A DNA stretch of 44,474 bases, taken from IMG/VR virus record IMGVR_UViG_3300045988_095785, positions 1 through 44,474 of that record; one strand, written 5' to 3'. The first letter of the stretch is position 1. Every line of letters starts with the position of its first letter. This DNA comes from a virus. Positions 5,489 to 39,084 of the stretch are shown here, piece after piece. The translations under genes and the position numbers were made by a program. The notes below the pieces were generated by a model. That model worked only from the letters and a program-made list of their open reading frames with translations, had not been told where the DNA came from and did no database searches.

Positions 5489-5761
5489 ATGCATGTAATG
5501 AAATGCGATAGATGCGGTAATTATTTTGACTGTAATCAATTAAGACTTAGAATAGGCAATTGCAGCAGCGAATCGTTCGGGCACATAAGTGTAAGAGGAG
5601 TGAATAATCACTGCTGTAACTATGATCTGTGTGATGATTGTGTTGTTGACTTCTTCCGTTGGGTTAATGATCCGGGCAAGTTGATGGGAGGTGAATCCGC
5701 CAATGGACAAAAAGAAACTGGAAAGGTACAAGCCATTGAAAAGGGAGCTACTGATGATTGA
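5489..5761 (+). CDS. Cys-rich hypothetical protein
   Basis: In frame with track ORF 5468. AGGAGG lies 8 nt before ATG 5489. The start is uncertain (5483 or 5489). Confidence 0.5.
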   Translation: MHVMKCDRCGNYFDCNQLRLRIGNCSSESFGHISVRGVNNHCCNYDLCDDCVVDFFRWVNDPGKLMGGESANGQKETGKVQAIEKGATDD

Positions 5762-6131
5762 CAAGCAAATAAGCAAACTGGAGGAACGCCGGGAAGCGCT
5801 GCCTGTAGTTATGGGCAAGGTGCAGTCATCAGATCATAATTTCCCGTTTACAGAGCGGCGTGTCAGTGTGGAAATGTACGAGCCTAAGGATGCGGATAAG
5901 ATTAAGCGGGAAATTGCCAGGAAACAGGCCAGAAAAAGGCAAATAAAAGCTGAAATGGAGGAAGTAGAAGAGTTTATTGGCAGTATGCCAGAAGGAGAAG
6001 AGCGACAGGTATTTGAGCTGTATTATCTGGAAGGAATGCGACAGAGAGAGGTTGCGGACATCATAGGATTAGAACAGAGTAGCATATCAAAAAGAATTTC
6101 AACTTTTCTTCAACTTTCATACAATTCATAA
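5703..6131 (+). CDS. sigma-70 region-4-like HTH protein, putative late-gene activator (ArpU/RinA-type position)
   Basis: C-terminus ERQVFELYYLEGMRQREVADIIGLEQSSISKRI is a region-4 HTH. GGAGGTG RBS. Confidence 0.65.
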   Translation: MDKKKLERYKPLKRELLMIDKQISKLEERREALPVVMGKVQSSDHNFPFTERRVSVEMYEPKDADKIKREIARKQARKRQIKAEMEEVEEFIGSMPEGEERQVFELYYLEGMRQREVADIIGLEQSSISKRISTFLQLSYNS

Positions 6132-7080: not shown

Positions 7081-7135
7081 GCAATTTTATCAAACCTAGT
7101 ATAAAATGAAAGAAAATATATTTAGGGAAAGTAAA

Positions 7136-8287
7136 ATGGAAAATGACGAATTGCTACTAAATAAAAATGTAATAAAAACTAATTCTAAGAATATAATTAT
7201 TAAAAATGGTCATGCTATATTTCAAAATAAAGATAAAGAATTTAATGGCAATTCCATTAAAAAATTATTAGCATATGTAAATACTTTAAAAGAAAAATAT
7301 GCAAATGTTAGAATGCCTATTATTATAAATTTAGGTGATATAGTATTTACTGATAAGTTAACATATATTTTTCTTGAAATAATATGCAATATATTAATAA
7401 AAAGTTATGGACATAGGGTTACAGTGATTTTCAAGTGTGAACATAATATTTTTATAGAAGGAATTGCGTCTTCTCCATTATTGTTATTAAACAACAGCGA
7501 TAAAGACAACATGAAGAAATATACGGATAAGTTCTGTGATGATCTATATAAAAATCATTATAGAAGGGTAATGAGAAAGAGTTCAAATAATGTAGAGTTA
7601 TCAAGAAGAATGGATGATATTTCTTATTTTTTAAAGTATTCTGGTGTTGGAGAAGAGTGTATTGATGAAATATCGGAAGTTATTGTTGAACTAATAGGAA
7701 ATGCTTGGGAGCATGCAGCGTCTGAATGTCTGGTAGATTTGGATGTTACGAATTCTTATTTTAAACAAGAAAATAGTAGTGCGTTTTTGGGTATAAATAT
7801 TGCAGTGATTAATTTTTCTGAAAAACTGTTAGGAGATGGCATTAAAAGAAAGATAACAAATCAAGATATAAATTTATTTGAAAGATATGTGTTAGTAAAA
7901 GAAGCCTATGAAAAACATAAGTCTTTTATGAATTCAGTGTATCAAGATGCTGATTTTTTTAACATTGCTGCTTTTCAACACAAAATATCAGGAAGAAATA
8001 AAAAGGTATCTACAGGAGGTACTGGACTTACAAAGTTAATATCTTCTCTTGAAAAGCGTTCAGATGCTCATAAGTGCTACTTAATTACTGGGAACAGAGC
8101 ATTGTGGTTTTTCCATCAATATCTTGAGTACAATAAAGAAGGATGGATTGGGTTTAATGAGAGTAATGACTTTTTTAGTCAGGCCCCTTCGGGTATAGTA
8201 ACAGGGAGTAATTCTATATTTTTGCCTGGTACTGCGTATAATTTGAATTTTGTTATGAAAAGGAGAGAAGAAAAGTGGATAATATAA
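7136..8287 (+). CDS. GHKL (Bergerat-fold) ATPase / kinase-like protein with an unknown N-terminal domain
   Basis: Track ORF 7106..8287; ATG 7136 is preferred because 7106 abuts the -10 element. N-box EVIVELIGNAWEHA and G2-like STGGTGLTKL are present. Very AT-rich. Confidence 0.7.
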   Translation: MENDELLLNKNVIKTNSKNIIIKNGHAIFQNKDKEFNGNSIKKLLAYVNTLKEKYANVRMPIIINLGDIVFTDKLTYIFLEIICNILIKSYGHRVTVIFKCEHNIFIEGIASSPLLLLNNSDKDNMKKYTDKFCDDLYKNHYRRVMRKSSNNVELSRRMDDISYFLKYSGVGEECIDEISEVIVELIGNAWEHAASECLVDLDVTNSYFKQENSSAFLGINIAVINFSEKLLGDGIKRKITNQDINLFERYVLVKEAYEKHKSFMNSVYQDADFFNIAAFQHKISGRNKKVSTGGTGLTKLISSLEKRSDAHKCYLITGNRALWFFHQYLEYNKEGWIGFNESNDFFSQAPSGIVTGSNSIFLPGTAYNLNFVMKRREEKWII

Positions 8288-8559
8288 TTAAGCTAAAATT
8301 TGAAAAATCATTGGAAGGCTTAGCAGGGTATGAATTTGGAATGGAAACATACAAAAATCAGGTTGAAAATAGAATTAATTTTGACCAAAAAATAACAATC
8401 GTATTTCCAGATAATATTCAAAGAATTGCCTCTTCTTTTATACAGGGTTTTTTTGAAAATATTGTACAACACATTGGGGTGTCAGGAGTTGAAAAGAATA
8501 TTGAAATTATTTCAACTAAGGAAGAACTGAAAAAAATAATAATTAGTAATTTATTATGA
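8275..8559 (+). CDS. STAS-like (DUF4325-type) small protein
   Basis: GTG start follows AAAGGAGAG and overlaps the upstream gene by 13 nt. The motif FPDNIQRIASSFIQGFFENI resembles DUF4325 (from memory). Confidence 0.6.
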   Translation: MDNIIKLKFEKSLEGLAGYEFGMETYKNQVENRINFDQKITIVFPDNIQRIASSFIQGFFENIVQHIGVSGVEKNIEIISTKEELKKIIISNLL

Positions 8560-8568
8560 GGTATTACG

Positions 8569-9045
8569 ATGTGGAGTGATTTTTTATCAATTGTGGCTAT
8601 TATTATTTCAATTGTCGTTGCGATTGTTGAATACATTAAAGAGGTACGATTAAGTCGTATAAATTTAGAATCAGAATATTATAAAGATATTTATAAAAAT
8701 CATTTAGTATATGAAATACCAACTGCTAGGAAATATATAAAATTTGATTTATATAATAAACTTATAGATGCAGATAAACTTATCAATGAATTGCAAAAAT
8801 TAAGGCAAGACTCTTTATATTTTCAGTATAATAATCCAGAATTTTATAAGCAATTAAAAGAGACTATCCAAAATCTAGAGGATTACTTAGTCACGAATAC
8901 AGGTAAAGAGTTTATTGGCGAAGAGCAGACTATAGTGTATAATACAATAAAAGACAATATTAATGAAATTTATAGAATAATATCTAATGGTTATCTAGGA
9001 AAGAAAAATATTAGATTTAAAAAGTTAAAAATAAAATTTGAATAA
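8569..9045 (+). CDS. membrane-anchored coiled-coil protein (N-terminal TM helix), unknown function
   Basis: ORF track. FLSIVAIIISIVVAIVEYI is a hydrophobic helix. GAGGT RBS. Confidence 0.6.
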   Translation: MWSDFLSIVAIIISIVVAIVEYIKEVRLSRINLESEYYKDIYKNHLVYEIPTARKYIKFDLYNKLIDADKLINELQKLRQDSLYFQYNNPEFYKQLKETIQNLEDYLVTNTGKEFIGEEQTIVYNTIKDNINEIYRIISNGYLGKKNIRFKKLKIKFE

Positions 9046-9077
9046 ATATTACATATTTCATTTTAGGTATTACATCG

Positions 9078-9113
9078 AGCGTCTGGTCAGATAACTGGCT
9101 GGGCGCTTTTGTT
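9078..9113 (+). terminator. rho-independent terminator of the low-GC cassette
   Basis: AGCGTCTGGTCAG-ATAA-CTGGCTGGGCGCT stem (with G-U pairs) followed by TTTTGTT. Confidence 0.7.
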
Positions 9114-9115
9114 AT

Positions 9116-9187
9116 GGGTATATAGCTCAGAGGGAGAGCGGCGGCCTTATAAGGCGTGTGCCGCCGGTTCGATCCCGGCTATGCCTA
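9116..9187 (+). tRNA. tRNA-Ile(UAU)?: tRNA-like gene, anticodon loop CTTATAA (UAU, Ile) with an imperfect anticodon stem
   Basis: Acceptor GGGTATA/TATGCCT (two G-U pairs); D arm GCTC-AGAGGGA-GAGC; T arm GCCGG-TTCGATC-CCGGC. The anticodon stem GCGGC/GGCGT has one G-G mismatch. Confidence 0.6.
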
Positions 9188-9212
9188 TTAAGCGTATGGG
9201 ATAATCCTCCAT

Positions 9213-9241
9213 TTGACATAATAAAACATATGTTCTATAAT
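9213..9241 (+). promoter_or_regulatory. consensus sigmaA promoter TTGACA-17-TATAAT
   Basis: TTGACA 9213-9218, TATAAT 9236-9241, 17-nt spacer. Confidence 0.8.
9224..9235 (+). promoter_or_regulatory. SOS (Cheo) box-like site AAACATATGTTC in the promoter spacer
   Basis: 11 of 12 match to GAAC-N4-GTTC. The core AACATATGTTC equals the Bacillus-type consensus core. Confidence 0.65.
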
Positions 9242-9250
9242 GATTAAAAA

Positions 9251-9262
9251 GAACACATGTTT
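9251..9262 (+). promoter_or_regulatory. SOS box-like site GAACACATGTTT just downstream of the -10
   Basis: 11 of 12 match to GAAC-N4-GTTC. Confidence 0.6.
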
Positions 9263-9274
9263 GGAGATGATAAA

Positions 9275-9508
9275 ATGAAAACCGGACCAACAAGGCGGCA
9301 GATGGACGTGTATAACTTCATTGTTGCTTATATAACAAAAAATATGTATTCCCCGTCTGTGAGGGACATATGTAAGGCAATAGGGATTAATTCAACGTCA
9401 GCGGTGTGGGTTCATCTGGAGGCACTAAAACGTTGGGGACTGATTGATTATAAGCCAGCACAGACGAGGAGCATAGTATTAAAGGGTTATAAACTGGTAA
9501 AAGAGTAA
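9275..9508 (+). CDS. LexA N-terminal DNA-binding-domain-only protein (winged HTH, no S24 peptidase domain)
   Basis: TRRQMDVYNFIVAYITKNMYSPSVRDICKAIGINSTSAVWVHLEALKRWGLI parallels the LexA N-terminus (RQ..L.FI...G.PPSVREI...G..S.S.V..HL..LE.KG.I). The ORF stops after about 77 aa. Confidence 0.75.
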   Translation: MKTGPTRRQMDVYNFIVAYITKNMYSPSVRDICKAIGINSTSAVWVHLEALKRWGLIDYKPAQTRSIVLKGYKLVKE

Positions 9509-9533
9509 GAGGCACTTCGGTGTCTCTTTTTGT
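9508..9533 (+). terminator. rho-independent terminator
   Basis: AGAGGCAC-TTCG-GTGTCTCT followed by TTTTTGT. Confidence 0.75.
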
Positions 9534-9546
9534 ATACAGAAAAGAG

Positions 9547-10023
9547 GTGAGCCTTACGGCTAAAGGAAAATATGAATACTGGTTGACGCCGGAAGGCTTG
9601 CTTTTGCTGGAAGGATGGGCCAGAGATGGTCTGATAGATGAACAAATAGCTGAGAACATGGGTATAGTACCTTCTACTCTGTATCGGTGGAAAAATGAAC
9701 ACGAGGAGATTTCGGAGGCCCTAAAAAAGGGGAAAGAGGTAGTGGACCGGCAGGTAGAGAATGCTTTACTTAAACGGGCATTGGGATATTCTTATGAAGA
9801 AGTAACTAAAGAGATATGCGAAAATCCAGAAACGGGTAATCTGGAAATGAAAATAACCAAGAAGGTAAAAAAAGAAGTGGTACCAGATACAACGGCACAA
9901 ATCTTCTGGTTGAAGAACCGCAGGCCGGATAAGTGGAGAGATAAGCATGAGGTAAATGGTAATTCAGGTGAGAAAGCTGTAGAAAAGTACATAAGAGCTA
10001 TAGAGGAGGATATGAGGAAGTGA
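9547..10023 (+). CDS. terS: terminase small subunit
   Basis: Motifs KYEYWLTPEGLLLLEGWARDGL and PDTTAQIFWLKNRRPDKWRDK. GTG 9547 is chosen because track start 9520 lies inside the terminator hairpin; the start is uncertain. Confidence 0.8.
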   Translation: MSLTAKGKYEYWLTPEGLLLLEGWARDGLIDEQIAENMGIVPSTLYRWKNEHEEISEALKKGKEVVDRQVENALLKRALGYSYEEVTKEICENPETGNLEMKITKKVKKEVVPDTTAQIFWLKNRRPDKWRDKHEVNGNSGEKAVEKYIRAIEEDMRK

Positions 10024-14560: not shown

Positions 14561-15568
14561 ATGGCAATTACAACTATTGCAGATATGCAGATTGTGCCTA
14601 GTAAATTCGCACAGTATATCATCGACAGAACTACTGAAAAATCCAAATTGGTGAGAAGCGGGATTGTAACATCTGACCCCACGGTATCACAGGTAATCAG
14701 CGGAACCCCTAAAGGTGGTAATCTTATTACAATGCCTTATTACAATCCGCTGACCGGAGAAGACGAGGTGTTTGGAGAAGAGGAAATCGGGGTTGATAAG
14801 GTTACAACAGATAACGAGGTTGCTACATTGCTTATCCGTCAGAAAGCATGGGGCGATACAGATTTGTCTACAGTGTTTGGCGGCAGTGACCCGATGAGCG
14901 CCATTCTTGATTTAAGCGCTGACTGGTGGAACACGAGAGAACAGGCAATCATGTTATCTATCCTTAAAGGTATCCTTGACCCATCTAAAGGGGCATTAAA
15001 AGCGCATGTGCTGGATGTATCAGCGGCGGCGGGAACTGATTGCATCATCGGAGTGCACAACACCCTGGATGCAAAGCAGCTTATGGGTGACGCATTTGAT
15101 AAGCTGGGTATGGTTTTTATGCACTCTGCGACATATACACAGCTCCAGAAACAGCAGCAAATTGAAACAGAATACGATGCTACATTGCAGATCAAGATTG
15201 ACTATTACCTTGGATATCAGGTAATTGTGGATGATGGTATGCCATATGACAGCTCAACCAAAACTTACATGACATACTTCCTTGGCAAAGGCGTGTTTGC
15301 AAGAAATGATGGTATGCCGATGGGACTGATTGGCGTAGAGACAGACAGAAACAAGAGGAAAGCTGAGAATGTACTGATTAACCGTCGTGCACTGGTGATG
15401 CATCCGCTTGGAGTATCCTGGAATCCGGCTGCCGTACCATCCAATGGAAAGAAATATGCGAACAATGCCGATCTGGAGAAGCCTGCAAACTGGATCTTGA
15501 AGAAACAGCTTAAGAACATCCCGATTGTAGCGCTGAAACATAAAATTGAGGCAAATCCGACCGCATAA
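14561..15568 (+). CDS. major capsid protein
   Basis: 335 aa; strong RBS AAGGAGG; position after the scaffold gene. Confidence 0.8.
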   Translation: MAITTIADMQIVPSKFAQYIIDRTTEKSKLVRSGIVTSDPTVSQVISGTPKGGNLITMPYYNPLTGEDEVFGEEEIGVDKVTTDNEVATLLIRQKAWGDTDLSTVFGGSDPMSAILDLSADWWNTREQAIMLSILKGILDPSKGALKAHVLDVSAAAGTDCIIGVHNTLDAKQLMGDAFDKLGMVFMHSATYTQLQKQQQIETEYDATLQIKIDYYLGYQVIVDDGMPYDSSTKTYMTYFLGKGVFARNDGMPMGLIGVETDRNKRKAENVLINRRALVMHPLGVSWNPAAVPSNGKKYANNADLEKPANWILKKQLKNIPIVALKHKIEANPTA

Positions 15569-32938: not shown

Positions 32939-33129
32939 TCCGGCTCGACGTCGAGTTTCTGACATAATAATAGCCCCGGTGATGAGCCGGGGCAAACAAA
33001 AGGGAGCCAGCTACAGCCGGTCCCCAGATTCGTGTTTTACACAGTTAATGTGTACGCAAGCATCATATCATATAAAGCATTTGTTTACAAGTTTAAATAA
33101 CAAACAAATCCATGTTTTTCCCTTATAGT

Positions 33130-33225
33130 AAAAAAACCGCCAAATGGCGGCCCCGCGTCCGACGACATTACATGTCGCTTAAACGTTAATTCGGTTGAGC
33201 GGGTATACAGCATATTTCTATCTGC
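33130..33225 (-). ncRNA. candidate small RNA (about 96 nt)
   Basis: Minus-strand promoter TTGACA-17-TATTAT with an extended TG (33232-33260). Terminator CCGCC-ATTT-GGCGG + T7 (33130-33150). No RBS or credible ORF. Confidence 0.3.
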
Positions 33226-33231
33226 AAGTAT

Positions 33232-33260
33232 ATAATAGCAGTTTTTGAAGCGGTTGTCAA
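33232..33260 (-). promoter_or_regulatory. promoter TTGACA-17-(TG)cTATTAT
   Basis: Read on the reverse complement. Confidence 0.5.
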
Positions 33261-34623: not shown

Positions 34624-34917
34624 TTAAATCTTTTTATACTGCAATTTGATATGATGAGAATTGCCGTCATTGTCTATAACATCAAAGTAAGGATGTTCGT
34701 TACCAGTGAGGACTTCATTTGGTTCATAATTCCAACCCCACGGAGCCATGAGCATGATATCTCCTGCATTTGTCTCAAACATTTCCCAATTTTCAGGTAT
34801 TTCTATTTCTACCTTGTCACTGCATGTAGCAGTGGCATGAGGAGCATTTGCCGTCCAAACCTGTTTTTTCTCTGCGGAGAGTACCCCGTAATTTATATAT
34901 CCTGTAAATTTTTTCAT
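34624..34917 (-). CDS. hypothetical protein (97 aa)
   Basis: ORF track; GGGGGA RBS. Confidence 0.55.
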   Translation of the reverse strand: MKKFTGYINYGVLSAEKKQVWTANAPHATATCSDKVEIEIPENWEMFETNAGDIMLMAPWGWNYEPNEVLTGNEHPYFDVIDNDGNSHHIKLQYKKI

Positions 34918-35007
34918 CTTTGTATCCCCCTTGTATTTTATAATTTAATTTGTTATAATCTACTTGCTGGGGGAGCGGTGGCAAGCCCGCCCTCCTCTGG
35001 TATCTGT

Positions 35008-35256
35008 TTAAGCTATTTTCTTTTTTAATTCTTCCACTTCTTTTTGCAAGTCTTTAATCATCTGCAAAAGCAAGCTTGTGTTTTCATTTTCAAGTTTGTT
35101 GATTCTGTAATACTGTTTGAGTTCATCCATGTTTGATTCCAGCCTATTCATTTTGTCTGTAAGCCTCAATTGAACATTGTCAAGTTCGTTTAGAATCATG
35201 TTTGTTTGTGAATTAAGTAAATCAGCAATTGATTTTAAATCTTTTTCATCTAACAT
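35008..35256 (-). CDS. coiled-coil hypothetical protein (82 aa)
   Basis: ORF track; GGAGG RBS. Confidence 0.55.
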   Translation of the reverse strand: MLDEKDLKSIADLLNSQTNMILNELDNVQLRLTDKMNRLESNMDELKQYYRINKLENENTSLLLQMIKDLQKEVEELKKKIA

Positions 35257-35312
35257 TTTTAAACCTCCATATTTGATTTGTTAAAGATGCTTGCCCTTCT
35301 TTAACTATATTT

Positions 35313-35341
35313 ATTATATCATTATTGGTAACCAATGTCAA
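35313..35341 (-). promoter_or_regulatory. promoter TTGACA-17-TATAAT with palindrome ATTGGTAACCAAT in the spacer
   Basis: Reverse complement of 35313-35341. The palindrome is at 35324-35336. Confidence 0.7.
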
Positions 35342-35523
35342 TGTTCTTCTATCTTTTTTTCTATAATAATTTTCCCGTTTATCATAGAAACGGTTACCTT
35401 TCTATCTTCTTGTGTTACCCCTAGTTCCTTGACCATATCTGCCGGAAGGCTTATTTTATAATTAACAGAAGCCTTTCCTGCAGTTCCGCCTGCTTTGGCT
35501 ATAATTATATTCCTATCAACCAT
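35338..35523 (-). CDS. AbrB/MazE/SpoVT-type DNA-binding protein (61 aa)
   Basis: MVDRNIIIAKAGGTAGKASVNYKISLPADMVKELGV is a swapped-hairpin-type motif. ATG 35523 follows AAGAGGAG. Confidence 0.65.
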   Translation of the reverse strand: MVDRNIIIAKAGGTAGKASVNYKISLPADMVKELGVTQEDRKVTVSMINGKIIIEKKIEEH

Positions 35524-35557
35524 TACTACATCTCCTCTTATCATATTTGATATATAC

Positions 35558-35586
35558 ATTATAATACGATTGGGAACCAATATCAA
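35558..35586 (-). promoter_or_regulatory. promoter TTGATA-17-TATAAT with palindrome ATTGGGAACCAAT in the spacer
   Basis: Reverse complement of 35558-35586. The palindrome is at 35569-35581. Confidence 0.7.
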
Positions 35587-35750
35587 GAAAATATTACTGG
35601 AGCATGACATATACTTATACGCAGAACGGCCGACACCATTACAGTGCCGACCGCCTGCGACGAAAAAGAATATTCATACTTTTGGTTGCAAATAAATGAT
35701 ACAACATAATTGGGATTAGAGCAATAGATAATTGTGGACAGTTTTCGACA

Positions 35751-35939
35751 TTACGCCAACATATGTCGTTTGTATCTATATCCTATGGGGCGTTCTTCTG
35801 GATATGCCTTGTAATATAGGTACAGGGCATACTGTACGGATACGCTGCCGTGTGCGGGTAACTCAGGGTTCTTCTTCAATGCCGCACTATATAATAAGTA
35901 GGCATCGTGATTTTCAAATACAAGATTATTGTTTTTCAT
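35751..35939 (-). CDS. small hypothetical protein (62 aa) under an SOS-box promoter
   Basis: ATG 35939 follows GAAGGTGG. In frame with track ORF 35751..36020. Confidence 0.55.
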   Translation of the reverse strand: MKNNNLVFENHDAYLLYSAALKKNPELPAHGSVSVQYALYLYYKAYPEERPIGYRYKRHMLA

Positions 35940-35965: not shown

Positions 35966-35977
35966 GAACAAATGTTC
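35966..35977. promoter_or_regulatory. perfect SOS (Cheo) box GAACAAATGTTC
   Basis: GAAC-N4-GTTC, 14 nt downstream of the minus-strand -10. Confidence 0.7.
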
Positions 35978-35991
35978 TCTTACATACTTCG

Positions 35992-36020
35992 ATTATACGA
36001 ATGTATGTTCGATTTGTCAA
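35992..36020 (-). promoter_or_regulatory. consensus promoter TTGACA-17-TATAAT with SOS-like box GAACATACATTC (35999-36010) in the spacer
   Basis: Reverse complement reads TTGACAAATCGAACATACATTCGTATAAT. Confidence 0.75.
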
Positions 36021-36126: not shown

Positions 36127-36149
36127 GGCAACACGTTGGTAACAAATCA
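36127..36149 (+). repeat. direct repeat copy 1, GGCAACACGTTGGTAACAAATCA
   Basis: 22 of 23 identical to 36312-36334. Contains TTGG(C/T)AAC motifs at 11-bp spacing. Confidence 0.8.
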
Positions 36150-36311: not shown

Positions 36312-36334
36312 GGTAACACGTTGGTAACAAATCA
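36312..36334 (+). repeat. direct repeat copy 2, GGTAACACGTTGGTAACAAATCA (within three tandem TTGGTA(A/T)C units 36299-36331)
   Basis: See copy 1. It overlaps the integrase stop. Confidence 0.8.
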
Positions 36335-37468: not shown

Positions 37469-38197
37469 TCATCTCTTCGGAGATATAAACCGTTCTGGGT
37501 TGCCGCCCAGGGCGGTTTTTTCTTTTGTTGTAGTTTGCTTCATACCGTGCATATTTATTTTACCAGTATTTAGAGAACGTATATATTTCCCTTTCTTTTC
37601 CTGTTCTGAAACCGATACGAATTCAAGATCGCTCAAAGATCCGCTCACAATATATTGAAATATTTCATATTTTAAATTATCTAATCTATGACCTATAACA
37701 GTTATAGGAACATTAAACTTTGGAGCGATGTCAGCTTTGAATCGTTCTATTTCATTTTGTGGAGTAGTAAAGTCAATTGCATTCCTCACTATTGGTAAAA
37801 AACTGTAACTAGGTATTAAAAATTCAGCGGCTCCTTCATTGGCCTGCCATTCTAAATATGGGTCCTGGTTTGCTGTAGGTCCATCAAAGCAGTTAAATGT
37901 TTTGCGGTTAAGATGTCTATGTAAATTCAAGTGAAGAGTTTCATGCCCGCAATCAAAATTTTGCTCAGAGTAGGAGCGTTTGGAATTCAACAGAATTATA
38001 TCACAGTTGGATTCATCTCCTACAACTGACATCCCCCTCAGTCCTTTGGTCTTAAATGGAATGATTTCTATGTTTACTTTCATTCTTGTCAAATCTGATA
38101 TTAAATCAATCCCATAACCAAATTTGTCATAACCAAGACATTCTTTCAAACGCCATACCTTTCTATATAAGGTGGCTTTGGTAAGACTTGGTCCCAT
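37469..38197 (-). CDS. immA: ImmA/IrrE-family zinc metallopeptidase
   Basis: HETLH (HExxH) motif. Position immediately downstream of the XRE repressor gene. Confidence 0.8.
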   Translation of the reverse strand: MGPSLTKATLYRKVWRLKECLGYDKFGYGIDLISDLTRMKVNIEIIPFKTKGLRGMSVVGDESNCDIILLNSKRSYSEQNFDCGHETLHLNLHRHLNRKTFNCFDGPTANQDPYLEWQANEGAAEFLIPSYSFLPIVRNAIDFTTPQNEIERFKADIAPKFNVPITVIGHRLDNLKYEIFQYIVSGSLSDLEFVSVSEQEKKGKYIRSLNTGKINMHGMKQTTTKEKTALGGNPERFISPKR

Positions 38198-38200
38198 GTT

Positions 38201-38539
38201 TTATTTTTTGTCTCCTCTTAATCGTTTGATGGTTTCAAGCGCAAGACGGATATCGTCTGGATCAATACCGCTGTCTTGCGCCTCTTTTGCATAGGATAGA
38301 TAAACCCCTTTTATATCACTATAAGGATTTTTGTGTTCTTCAGCTACTTCTTTTCCTGTTGTGAGGTAATCTAAAGAAACCCCAAAGTAATCAGCAATTT
38401 TCTTTAAAGTGGCTGTCTTAGGTGTTATTTTCCCCATTTTCCAATCAGACAAAGATGATTGGGAAATACCTGTTGCTTTACTTACTTTATACGGAGTTAC
38501 TCCGTGTATTTGTAGTAACTGTTCAAATATCTCATACAT
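38201..38539 (-). CDS. XRE-family HTH repressor (CI/ImmR-like)
   Basis: ATG 38539 follows AAAGGTGA. HTH: YKVSKATGISQSSLSDWKMGK. Confidence 0.85.
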   Translation of the reverse strand: MYEIFEQLLQIHGVTPYKVSKATGISQSSLSDWKMGKITPKTATLKKIADYFGVSLDYLTTGKEVAEEHKNPYSDIKGVYLSYAKEAQDSGIDPDDIRLALETIKRLRGDKK

Positions 38540-38595
38540 AACCTGTTCACCTTTCACAAAAATGACAAATACTAAGAAAACACGGAATAAAGCCC

Positions 38596-38624
38596 TTGAC
38601 CTATCCGTGAAAACGTAGTATAGT
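38596..38624 (+). promoter_or_regulatory. early rightward promoter TTGACC-17-TATAGT
   Basis: Located in the divergent repressor/cro intergenic region. Confidence 0.65.
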
Positions 38625-38628
38625 ATGA

Positions 38629-38664
38629 GCATACAAAGTATTTACTTAGTAAATGCATGTATGC
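38629..38664. promoter_or_regulatory. 36-bp imperfect palindrome (GCATAC..ATTTACT-T-AGTAAAT..GTATGC), probable repressor operator
   Basis: It overlaps the predicted transcription start of the rightward promoter. Confidence 0.6.
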
Positions 38665-38950: not shown

Positions 38951-38962
38951 GAACTTATGTTC
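38951..38962. promoter_or_regulatory. perfect SOS (Cheo) box GAACTTATGTTC
   Basis: GAAC-N4-GTTC, 30 nt upstream of TATAAT at 38993-38998. Confidence 0.55.
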
Positions 38963-39084
38963 GTTTTCAAATGGAAAATTTACCATTGTTTGTATAATGA
39001 AACAATTGTATATCAACAGATTACAAACAATCTAAAAACTAGAGTGATTGCTCTGTAAAACATGGCAAATTATAGGAGGTAAGT

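What the first reader, a model, noticed from the sequence alone, without database searches (positions are those of the whole stretch)
9213..9508. Phage-encoded LexA lacking the autocleavage/dimerisation domain, expressed from a promoter carrying two SOS boxes
Seen in sequence:
- The 77-aa product aligns by eye with the LexA N-terminal winged HTH (RRQ..VYNFI....Y.PSVRDI...IG..S.S.V..HLE.L...GLI). It ends where the hinge and S24 peptidase domain would start.
- Its promoter is a perfect TTGACA-17-TATAAT.
- AAACATATGTTC sits in the promoter spacer.
- GAACACATGTTT lies 9 nt after the -10.
- A strong terminator follows at 9508-9533, so the gene is a monocistronic unit just upstream of terS.

Established knowledge: Gram-positive LexA binds GAAC-N4-GTTC (Cheo box). 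RecA-stimulated self-cleavage needs the C-terminal domain.

Inference: transcription of this gene should be derepressed by host SOS. The product could then be a non-cleavable competitor or replacement for LexA at SOS boxes. That would re-silence the host SOS regulon, time the phage genes carrying the same boxes (35966-36010, 38951), or auto-repress.
Basis: partly seen in the sequence, partly recalled or inferred. Interest (0 to 1): 0.65.

Follow-up and report, generated by a model that had tools for sequence, protein, structure and literature searches.

The report
SOS-controlled stand-alone LexA DNA-binding domain
A temperate phage of the gut bacterium Blautia carries a small, self-contained gene cassette that is switched on by DNA damage. 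The cassette makes a copy of the host's SOS repressor LexA that has only the DNA-binding half, so it cannot be destroyed the way LexA is and may close the damage response again.

Summary
**Observation:** confirmed in every detail.
- ORF 9275-9508 encodes a 77-aa protein that is only the LexA winged-helix domain. Support: Pfam LexA_DNA_bind E=5e-18, an AF2 model with pLDDT 90, and LexA as the top 11 PDB fold hits.
- It has no hinge, no Ala-Gly cleavage site and no S24 domain.
- It lies between a perfect TTGACA-17-TATAAT promoter with two GAAC-N4-GTTC-type boxes and a terminator that overlaps its stop codon.

**Comparative evidence**
- The cassette (9203-9531) recurs in Blautia/Lachnospiraceae phages whose flanking genes differ.
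- Both hexamers and the box half-sites are invariant or nearly so, while the neighbouring bases vary.
- The coding sequence has dN/dS of 0.03-0.12.
- In Clostridia genomes the same promoter design drives Y-family polymerases, recA and LysM-domain (possibly YneA-like) genes, so host LexA control is very likely.
- The position just upstream of terS is a cargo hot spot. The terminator before terS is general in this phage group.

**Function**
- Function is untested.
- Best reading (~0.45): an uncleavable LexA surrogate that gives delayed re-repression of LexA-box promoters. These would be its own, two others in the phage, and possibly the host SOS regulon.
- The only characterised relative, GIL01 gp6, is instead an activator with changed specificity. 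It is 26% identical, and no gp6-type site is present here.

**Verdict:** a new variant of a known kind, of moderate interest.

The parts
9203..9531 (+). The whole cassette (promoter to end of terminator). This is the unit shared among mosaic relatives whose flanks differ.
   Evidence: blastn block boundaries against 12 related loci; different upstream genes and terS/terL types
9213..9241 (+). Sigma-A consensus promoter, TTGACA-17-TATAAT (12/12)
   Evidence: both hexamers invariant in 11 distinct cassette versions
9224..9235 (.). LexA-type operator 1 (AAACATATGTTC). It fills the spacer and abuts the -10.
   Evidence: across relatives the sequence is RAAC-N4-GTTC with a variable centre (ATAT, ACAT, ATAC, GTAT)
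9251..9262 (.). LexA-type operator 2 (GAACACATGTTT), at about +3 to +14 of the transcript, directly before the RBS
   Evidence: across relatives the sequence is GAAC-N4-GTTT/C (one version has GAAT) with a variable centre
9275..9508 (+). lexN: a 77-aa stand-alone LexA winged-helix DNA-binding domain (recognition helix about residues 41-53; C-terminal GYKLVKE tail)
   Evidence: dN/dS 0.03-0.12
9507..9533 (+). Intrinsic terminator overlapping the stop codon (AAGAGGCAC-UUCG-GUGUCUCUU plus a U run). The terS RBS follows within about 15 nt.
   Evidence: compensatory stem changes in relatives
35992..36020 (-). Second perfect TTGACA-17-TATAAT promoter of similar design. It drives a 62-aa gene (35939..35751).
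   Evidence: the design is conserved in 10 IMG/VR phages
35999..36010 (.). LexA-type operator in the spacer of the second promoter (GAACATACATTC on the minus strand)
35966..35977 (.). LexA-type operator 14 nt downstream of the -10 of the second promoter (perfect GAACAAATGTTC)
38951..38962 (.). Perfect LexA-type operator (GAACTTATGTTC) just after the cro-like gene. It lies 14 nt downstream of a leftward promoter-like site: TTGTTT 39005..39000, then 17 nt, then TGgTAAATT 38985..38977.
   Evidence: In 11 of the 13 closest relatives listed (L275-L287; L281 differs from L277 by one deleted base in the box), plus L290, a box follows the cro-like stop. In the four read on the minus strand (L275, L276, L277, L280) it lies downstream of TTGACA-17-TACAAT/TATAGT.

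Best explanation
Window 9203-9531 is a self-contained, DNA-damage-inducible cargo cassette of a temperate Blautia (Lachnospiraceae) phage.

**Proposed mechanism**
- In the lysogen, host LexA occupies two operators and keeps a very strong consensus promoter shut. One operator fills the -35/-10 spacer and the other lies at about +3 to +14.
- When RecA* makes LexA cleave itself, the promoter fires. A short monocistronic mRNA yields a 77-aa protein, here called LexN.
- LexN is only the LexA winged-helix domain. With no hinge, cleavage site or S24 domain, RecA* cannot inactivate it.
- The most likely action is that LexN, at the high concentration this promoter allows, re-occupies GAAC-N4-GTTC operators as a DNA-assisted dimer. 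It would then act as an uncleavable LexA surrogate.
- That would first limit its own synthesis.
- It would also close the phage's other LexA-box promoters: the 36-kb accessory operon and the leftward promoter behind cro.
- It could also re-silence the host SOS regulon and other SOS-inducible elements in the cell. The open-ended SOS signal would become a pulse.

**Shown**
- Domain identity and truncation.
- Promoter, operators and terminator.
- Conservation of these elements, autonomy of the cassette, and purifying selection on the gene.
- Use of the same promoter design by canonical SOS genes.

**Inferred**
- Repression by host LexA.
- Binding of LexN to the same boxes.
- That the effect of that binding is repression.
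For: **Domain**
- Searches identify the protein as a LexA N-terminal domain and nothing more.

**Operators are functional and LexA-type**
- The half-sites and both hexamers are fixed in 11 distinct cassette versions. The 5 nt before box 1, the 8-9 nt before box 2 and the box centres vary.
- A 42%-identical homologue (L048) has the same design. L016 and L022 keep the spacer box.
- The pattern TTGACA-N5-RAAC-N4-GTTC-TATAAT gives more than 120 hits in GTDB genomes, mostly Clostridia and Chloroflexi.
- Of 95 first downstream ORFs, 19 are Y-family polymerases, 1 is RecA and 3 are LysM-domain proteins (one of them, in Listeria, looks YneA-like).

**LexN may share LexA's specificity**
- The helix STSAVWVHL resembles Clostridiales and Listeria LexA STSTVHG(H/Y)L.
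- The short subfamily keeps the motif STSSVxxHL.

**A lone N-terminal domain can repress**
- LexA N-terminal fragments keep binding SOS boxes and repressing unless they are degraded by ClpXP (PMC10584840).
- Natural fusions of two LexA_DNA_bind domains are common, which points to a dimeric working unit.

**Autoregulatory logic**
- The conserved unit is exactly promoter, gene and terminator. The regulator therefore always travels with these boxes and with nothing else.

**Cargo character**
- The slot before terS holds unrelated accessory genes in 47 related phages.

**The gene is functional**
- dN/dS is 0.03-0.12 with dS up to more than 1.
Against: - There are no binding or expression data.
- Three helix positions differ from host-type LexA (T to A, H to W, G to V), and one of them varies among alleles (V, K or F) without any change in the boxes. 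The boxes may therefore serve host LexA only.
- The second promoter design occurs in phages not seen to carry a close LexN, so the boxes do not need LexN.
- The only characterised truncated phage LexA, gp6, is an activator with altered specificity.
- A large clade of LexN-like genes has no Cheo box upstream.
- The LexA sequence of Blautia itself was not obtained.
- A lone domain may bind too weakly in vivo.
Confidence: 0.45

Rival explanations
1. gp6-like activator. LexN is made after SOS induction and then switches on phage genes (late, or the early operon) by binding at or near a promoter and recruiting RNA polymerase, as GIL01 gp6 does at P3.
For: - gp6 is the one characterised truncated phage LexA. 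It activates the late promoter, which also carries tandem LexA boxes.
- LexN-like genes lie at the early/late junction. Of 52 IMG/VR loci with a large ORF within 2.5 kb downstream, about 38 have a large terminase there (25 hit Terminase_6N; the two alternative C-terminal families sum to 38).
Against: - LexN is only 26% identical to gp6, and the critical K38 is not conserved.
- No gp6-type palindrome is present: 1 hit with 2 mismatches inside a gene, against 1.3 expected.
- Nothing conserved travels with the cassette except its own boxes, which sit in repressing positions (spacer and +3 to +14).
- There is no room for a promoter between the terminator and the terS RBS.
- The phage has its own sigma-r4/ECF-like regulator at 5691-6131.
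- The pre-terS slot is a general cargo site.
Confidence: 0.2
2. SOS-induced regulator with its own, diverged specificity. The boxes only make the gene LexA-controlled, and LexN binds some other host or phage sequence that has not been identified.
For: - The helix differs from LexA at 3 of 9 positions and varies between alleles while the boxes stay the same.
- L016 has a very different helix (SVSPILGHL) but still a Cheo box.
- The box-less clade L017-L045 carries a different palindrome (GGTATATATTACC) upstream.
Against: - No second conserved motif was found in or beside the cassette.
- The STS..V..HL core of the helix is retained across the short subfamily.
Confidence: 0.2
3. Gate to the late operon. 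P(9213) is an SOS-gated entry point for terS/terL transcription. Read-through of the terminator would be modulated by translation of lexN, whose stop codon lies in the stem, or by LexN loaded at the promoter in a Q-like manner.
For: - terS starts about 45 nt after lexN with no promoter in between.
- The stop codon overlaps the 5' arm of the hairpin in several clades.
- Operator 1 lies between the -35 and the -10.
- From my own knowledge: the lambda Q-binding element also lies between the -35 and the -10, and SaPI packaging operons are LexA-controlled.
Against: - A terminator directly before the terS leader is found whatever gene precedes it. Only 3 of 47 such phages have LexN there.
- The hairpin is stable, with a U tract.
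- LexA-fold proteins are not known antiterminators.
Confidence: 0.08
4. Decaying remnant of a captured lexA gene, with chance promoter-like and box-like sequences.
For: - Box-like 12-mers are not enriched window-wide.
Against: - dN/dS is 0.03-0.12 at dS up to more than 1.
- There are 20 protein clusters at 80-96% identity, all 77-83 aa.
- The library holds 4422 relatives, many of them 68-100 aa.
- Promoter, boxes and terminator are conserved, with compensatory stem changes.
Confidence: 0.02

Closest known systems
GIL01 (Betatectivirus) gp6, the truncated LexA homologue that activates late promoter P3 (Fornelos et al. 2018, PMC6182141)
   Same: [quoted passage not shown]
- It is made after LexA inactivation.
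- The phage also uses host LexA boxes in tandem at its own promoters.
- The gene lies at the end of the early region, before the late genes.
   Different: - It is only 26% identical to LexN.
- Its recognition helix is diverged (SHKTAHRYL, with the critical K38), whereas LexN keeps a LexA-like helix.
- gp6 is in the early operon, not in a cassette with its own two-box promoter and terminator.
- Its target palindrome GaCACAnnTGTGaC is absent here.
- It comes from a tectivirus of Bacillus rather than a tailed phage of Lachnospiraceae.
- gp6 activates; for LexN the sign of regulation is unknown, and the operator positions suggest repression.
Host LexA (TIGR00498) and its post-cleavage N-terminal fragment
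   Same: - The fold is the same and the recognition helix is similar.
- The free N-terminal fragment keeps binding SOS boxes and repressing until ClpXP removes it (PMC10584840).
   Different: - LexN has no S24 domain, no Ala-Gly site and no dimerisation domain.
- LexN ends in GYKLVKE. From my own knowledge, the ClpX-recognised end is exposed by cleavage of LexA, and LexN does not end that way.
- LexN has a conserved C-terminal 'GYKxVK' tail that is absent from the full-length LexAs aligned here.
LexA-controlled accessory or antirepressor modules of temperate phages (coliphage 186 Tum, Gifsy antirepressors, CTXphi rstA promoter; from my own knowledge)
   Same: - A phage gene sits behind a host LexA operator, so the phage reads the host SOS state directly.
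   Different: [quoted passage not shown]
Annotated but uncharacterised 'LexA DNA-binding domain proteins' of phages (Bacillus phage 11143, vB_BtS_BMBtp15, mycobacteriophages Cosmo and Wildcat gp13)
   Same: - They are short phage proteins with only PF01726, at 41-43% identity to LexN.
   Different: - Their genomic contexts differ: in the Bacillus phages the gene lies beside a recombinase or in the lysis-lysogeny region.
- No function or regulation has been reported in the library searched.

Membership tests
LexA repressor (TIGR00498 / PF01726+PF00717) | N-terminal winged-helix LexA_DNA_bind domain | tested here: met
   PF01726 E=5.3e-18. All 9 PDB sequence hits are LexA. Foldseek top 11 hits are LexA, with TMq up to 0.85.
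LexA repressor (TIGR00498 / PF01726+PF00717) | C-terminal S24 peptidase/dimerisation domain with an Ala-Gly cleavage site and a Ser-Lys dyad | tested here: not met
   The protein ends at residue 77, before the VAAG region in alignment A4. There is no PF00717 hit. The TIGR00498 score is 60.8 against a cut-off of 110.95, and only model positions 5-69 are matched.
LexA repressor (TIGR00498 / PF01726+PF00717) | Binds the SOS (Cheo) box GAAC-N4-GTTC | not testable with these tools
   Only indirect evidence: the helix STSAVWVHL against LexA STSTVHG(H/Y)L.
Truncated phage LexA homologues of the gp6 type | [quoted passage not shown] | tested here: met
   phage context with terS/terL, portal, integrase and ImmR/ImmA
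Truncated phage LexA homologues of the gp6 type | Orthology with gp6, including the DNA-contacting Lys38 | tested here: not met
   26% identity over 58 residues. The K38 column holds S/T in LexN.
Truncated phage LexA homologues of the gp6 type | Binding palindrome GaCACAnnTGTGaC overlapping the -35 of a late promoter | tested here: not met
   One 2-mismatch hit inside a gene at 14855, against 1.3 expected by chance.
Truncated phage LexA homologues of the gp6 type | Activates late transcription | not testable with these tools
   Needs reporter or in vitro transcription assays.
LexA-regulated (SOS) promoters of Firmicutes | Cheo-type box overlapping the core promoter | tested here: met
   Boxes at 9224-9235 (in the spacer) and 9251-9262 (at about +3 to +14). 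Conserved in relatives.
LexA-regulated (SOS) promoters of Firmicutes | The same design is used by canonical SOS genes in related hosts | tested here: met
   GTDB scan: more than 120 hits. Of 95 downstream ORFs, 19 are IMS polymerases, 1 is RecA, 3 are LysM proteins and 3 are radical SAM proteins. lexA itself lies beside such promoters in Listeria and in a Clostridiales MAG.
LexA-regulated (SOS) promoters of Firmicutes | Derepressed by DNA damage, or repressed by the LexA of this host (Blautia) | not testable with these tools
   The Blautia LexA sequence was not retrieved. No expression data.
Phage moron / cargo cassette | Own promoter and own terminator, in a slot whose content varies among related phages | tested here: met
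   Cassette boundaries. The slot holds methylases, membrane proteins, radical SAM proteins and others in 47 phages.

The most novel reading that the evidence does not exclude
LexN is a phage-made, RecA-proof stand-in for LexA.
- It is produced only once host LexA has been destroyed.
- It re-occupies SOS operators and so closes the SOS window from inside the cell.
- It would limit its own synthesis and shut off the phage's SOS-triggered accessory and anti-cro promoters once they have done their job.
- It would also silence host recA/dinB-type genes.
- It would also silence rival SOS-inducible prophages. At least one sequenced genome carries two lexN-bearing prophage contigs (L010 and L013).
- No phage protein is known, in the literature searched here, to replace LexA at its own operators.
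Probability: 0.35. Interest if true: 0.7.

Novelty: new variant of a known kind. Interest (0 to 1): 0.5.

Why it matters
- Phages are known to read the host SOS state (cleavable CI, or antirepressors behind LexA boxes). In one case, GIL01, a phage borrows a LexA fragment as an activator.
- A tailed-phage cassette would be a different way of manipulating the SOS network. In it, LexA represses a gene for an uncleavable LexA DNA-binding domain, giving a built-in delayed negative feedback.
- That feedback could turn SOS into a pulse, protect the phage's timetable, and suppress competing prophages or SOS-dependent host functions.
- The family is large: 4422 relatives in the 1.84-billion-protein library, many of them 68-100 aa, and 201 loci in IMG/VR. 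It is common in gut Lachnospiraceae phages.
- Any function found would therefore bear on prophage induction in the gut microbiome, including induction by DNA-damaging drugs.
- The hypothesis is directly testable with one small protein and five operators.

Tried and rejected
1. **Host (Blautia) LexA.** I tried to obtain its sequence to compare recognition helices.
   - Only Listeria and one Clostridiales-MAG LexA were recovered, indirectly.
2. **'LexN is tied to terS/late transcription because it is always next to terS.'** Weakened.
   - Phages sharing the terS leader have a terminator and unrelated cargo genes in that slot. Only 3 of 47 have LexN there.
3. **gp6-type operator.** Not present.
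4. **Global enrichment of Cheo boxes in the phage.** None: 12 observed against 12.0 expected. Only the placement is informative.
5. **A rightward gene regulated by the 38951 box.** Rejected.
   - The four distant relatives of ORF 39085 have different upstream DNA.
   - The box is conserved with the cro-like gene and belongs to a leftward promoter.
6. **Known RNA family in or near the cassette.** Rfam finds only the two tRNAs and an unrelated DUF3800-I RNA.
7. **Literature on tailed-phage truncated LexA proteins.** Nothing beyond gp6 in the library searched.
8. **Dimer or DNA-complex structure prediction.** Not possible with the tools. The C-terminal GYKLVKE tail is modelled as coil with lower confidence (pLDDT about 72), so a dimerisation role remains a guess.
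Full report
**What is there**

- A 12/12 sigma-A promoter, TTGACA(9213-9218)-17-TATAAT(9236-9241), is the best promoter match in the region.
- AAACATATGTTC (9224-9235) fills the 3' part of the spacer and abuts the -10.
- GAACACATGTTT (9251-9262) begins 9 nt after the -10 and is followed directly by GGAG and then ATG 9275.
- The ORF 9275-9508 encodes MKTGPTRRQMDVYNFIVAYITKNMYSPSVRDICKAIGINSTSAVWVHLEALKRWGLIDYKPAQTRSIVLKGYKLVKE.
- A hairpin (9-bp stem, UUCG loop, 9507-9528) with a U run overlaps the stop codon.
- The terS RBS (AGAGGTGA) follows about 15 nt later, then terS and terL.
- tRNA-Ile(tat) lies just upstream at 9115-9188, preceded by another terminator-like hairpin at 9077-9108.

**Identity of the protein**
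- Pfam gives LexA_DNA_bind with E=5.3e-18 over 60 of the 65 profile positions, and no other significant domain.
- NCBIfam lexA is matched only over model positions 5-69 of 203 and falls below the cut-off.
- By sequence, all 9 PDB hits are LexA.
- An AlphaFold2 model built on 22 short homologues has pLDDT 89.9 and three helices plus a wing. Its 11 best PDB fold matches are all LexA, with TMq up to 0.85.
- Aligned with full-length LexAs, the protein stops before the VAAG cleavage region and lacks the whole S24 domain.
- The truncation is not decay.
  - Twenty protein clusters at 80-96% identity are all 77-83 aa.
  - Pairwise dN/dS among 11 alleles is 0.03-0.12, with dS up to more than 1.
- I call the protein LexN for short.

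**Host and element**
- One close homologue is named from Blautia caccae.
- The window is a temperate siphovirus-like genome.
- Lysogeny genes: an integrase, an ImmR-like HTH repressor (38201-38632, minus strand), an ImmA/IrrE M78 protease (37469-38197, minus strand) and a cro-like gene.
- Other regions: recombination and replication genes, a sigma-r4/ECF-like regulator (5691-6131), and a long late operon.

**The cassette is a unit**
- blastn against a dozen relatives shows that the shared block runs from 9203/9209 to 9530, that is from just upstream of the -35 to the end of the terminator.
- The flanks differ. Upstream there is a tRNA or various small genes. Downstream there are at least three unrelated terS types and several terL types.
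- Eleven distinct versions of the promoter region keep both hexamers.
- They also keep RAAC...GTTC (box 1) and GAAC...GTTT/C (box 2; one version has GAAT).
- The 5 nt before box 1, the 8-9 nt before box 2 and the 4-nt box centres vary freely.
- The terminator stem shows compensatory changes.
- A 42%-identical homologue (L048) has the same layout: box abutting the -10, and a second box 9 nt after it. L016 and L022 keep the spacer box.

**Are the boxes host LexA operators?**
- I could not retrieve the Blautia LexA.
- The design itself is diagnostic. TTGACA-N5-RAAC-N4-GTTC-TATAAT has about one chance match expected in the 596-Gb GTDB collection (my own estimate).
- Of the 95 first downstream ORFs, 19 are Y-family polymerases. 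Others are RecA, LysM-domain proteins (one of them, in Listeria, looks YneA-like) and radical-SAM proteins.
- lexA itself lies beside such promoters in Listeria and in a Clostridiales MAG.
- This is a standard SOS promoter class, so repression of P(9213) by host LexA and derepression by DNA damage is a strong inference.

**Other LexA-box promoters in the phage**
- The boxes at 35966 and 35999 lie in a second perfect TTGACA-17-TATAAT promoter on the minus strand (36020..35992). One is in the spacer and one is 14 nt after the -10.
- This promoter drives a 62-aa gene followed by an AbrB-like gene and others.
- Ten IMG/VR phages keep this design in front of the homologous gene.
- Their contigs are not among those with close LexN homologues, so these boxes do not depend on LexN.
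- The perfect box at 38951 follows the cro-like stop codon.
- In 11 of the 13 closest relatives listed (L275-L287), and in L290, a box sits at that place. L281 differs from L277 only by one deleted base in the box.
- In the four relatives I read on the minus strand (L275, L276, L277, L280), the box lies downstream of TTGACA-17-TACAAT/TATAGT on that strand. This is a leftward, SOS-type promoter antisense to cro.
- The window has the same geometry with weaker hexamers.
- Window-wide, boxes are not enriched (12 against 12.0 expected). Only their placement matters.

**Why next to terS?**
- Among 80 IMG/VR loci with LexN-like genes, 52 have a large ORF within 2.5 kb downstream, and about 38 of those are large terminases. 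This first suggested a late-gene role.
- However, 47 phages sharing the terS leader AACGATTGAGAGGTGGTG mostly have a hairpin-plus-T-run terminator 15-25 nt before the terS RBS, whatever gene lies upstream.
- Those upstream genes include methylases, membrane proteins, a radical-SAM protein and a dCTP-deaminase-like protein. Only three are LexN-like.
- The slot is therefore a cargo hot spot at the early/late junction, and the terminator before terS is a property of the phage group.
- In the window the same region also holds two tRNAs and three AT-rich orphan genes.
- LexN is best seen as a moron-like cassette with its own promoter and terminator.

**How it most likely works**
- The steps shown by the data are the ones set out in the sections above.
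- Inferred step 1: host LexA shuts P(9213), and DNA damage opens it.
- Inferred step 2: LexN then binds Cheo-type boxes.
  - Its recognition helix (STSAVWVHL) keeps six of nine residues of the Clostridiales/Listeria LexA helix STSTVHG(H/Y)L.
  - The short subfamily keeps STSSVxxHL.
  - Free LexA N-terminal fragments retain operator binding and repression until proteolysed (PMC10584840).
  - Natural tandem fusions of two such domains are common among relatives.
  - The only operators that always accompany the gene are its own.
- Inferred step 3: binding at the spacer and at +3 to +14 represses.
- Together these steps give a RecA-proof LexA surrogate and delayed negative feedback. The feedback would act on the cassette itself, on the other phage LexA-box promoters, and possibly on the host SOS regulon and rival SOS-inducible elements.
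- I put this at about 0.45.

**Rivals**
- A gp6-like activator (0.2).
  - The precedent is real, but LexN is 26% identical to gp6 and lacks K38.
  - No gp6 site is present.
  - Nothing else conserved travels with the cassette.
- A diverged specificity for an unknown target, with the boxes serving host LexA only (0.2).
  - This is supported by helix variation without box variation.
  - It is also supported by a box-less clade that carries a different upstream palindrome.
- A gate or antitermination link to the late operon (0.08).
- A remnant or chance feature (0.02), which the conservation data contradict.

**Comparison and novelty**
- LexN fails membership of LexA proper, because the S24/cleavage domain was tested and is absent.
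- It fails orthology with gp6.
- It belongs to the broad, mostly uncharacterised set of stand-alone LexA_DNA_bind proteins. That set has 4422 relatives at E<1e-3, with most of the best 150 being 68-100 aa or tandem duplicates. Some are annotated in phages but not studied.
- Literature searches found no characterised tailed-phage example.
- The new element is the circuit: a LexA-repressed consensus promoter driving an uncleavable LexA DNA-binding domain, packaged as a mobile cassette.
- I rate it a new variant of a known kind, with interest 0.5. It is real, conserved and testable, but its function is inferred only.

Noticed in passing
window 38951-39005 (minus strand); L275-L290: The LexA box after the cro-like gene belongs to a leftward SOS-type promoter antisense to cro. 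In relatives it reads TTGACA-17-TACAAT-12..15 nt-CGAAC..GTTCG; the window version is weaker. It would send damage-induced transcription back towards immR/immA/int. This could be how an ImmR/ImmA-type switch senses SOS.
   Followed up: partly
window 35992-36020 (minus strand) and genes 35939..34624 (minus strand): A second perfect consensus promoter with two LexA boxes drives a 62-aa orphan gene. An AbrB/MazE-like gene, a coiled-coil gene and a 97-aa gene follow downstream. The promoter design is conserved in 10 IMG/VR phages. The function of this SOS-induced accessory operon is unknown.
   Followed up: partly
window 35313-35341 and 35558-35586 (minus strand); about 36130-36148 and 36316-36334: Two more consensus-grade promoters carry a different palindrome (TTGGTTACCAA / TTGGTTCCCAA) in the spacer, probably the operator of another regulator such as the AbrB-like protein. 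The sequence 'acacgttggtaacaaatca' is repeated twice, at about 36130 and at about 36316 (overlapping the 3' end of the integrase gene).
   Followed up: no
window 33126-33232 (minus strand): Rfam DUF3800-I RNA (RF02969, 96 bits against a gathering score of 44) lies immediately downstream of a near-consensus promoter at 33260..33232.
   Followed up: no
window 9507-9560; L228-L274: Across 47 related phages, most have a terminator 15-25 nt upstream of the terS RBS, with no room for a promoter. Late transcription must therefore read through terminators, which hints at an unrecognised antitermination mechanism in this Lachnospiraceae phage group. A sigma-r4/ECF-like gene lies at 5691-6131.
   Followed up: partly
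window 9547-9560: terS has no canonical start at the right distance from its RBS AGAGGTGA. ACG 9556 aligns with the ATG of a relative (L006) that has the same leader, so terS may use a non-canonical start (or GTG 9547).
   Followed up: no
window 7106-9045: Three AT-rich cargo genes (393, 94 and 158 aa) lie between conserved blocks and have no significant Pfam or PADLOC match. In relatives the slot holds other cargo such as TIR_2 plus DUF7352. They may be an unknown defence or accessory module.
   Followed up: partly
P0022-P0070 (library hits); L017-L045: Many relatives are natural tandem fusions of two or three LexA_DNA_bind domains. A large phage clade of 88-92-aa LexN-like proteins (helix STSSVAVHM) has no Cheo box upstream. 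Instead it has a conserved hairpin (cccggcacc...ggtgtccgggg) and a palindrome GGTATATATTACC.
   Followed up: partly
L010 and L013 (IMG genome 2841770359): Two different prophage contigs of one sequenced genome each carry a lexN cassette (96% and 90% identity), and a third contig (L102) carries the 62-aa SOS operon. This is polylysogeny with several copies of the same SOS-linked modules.
   Followed up: no
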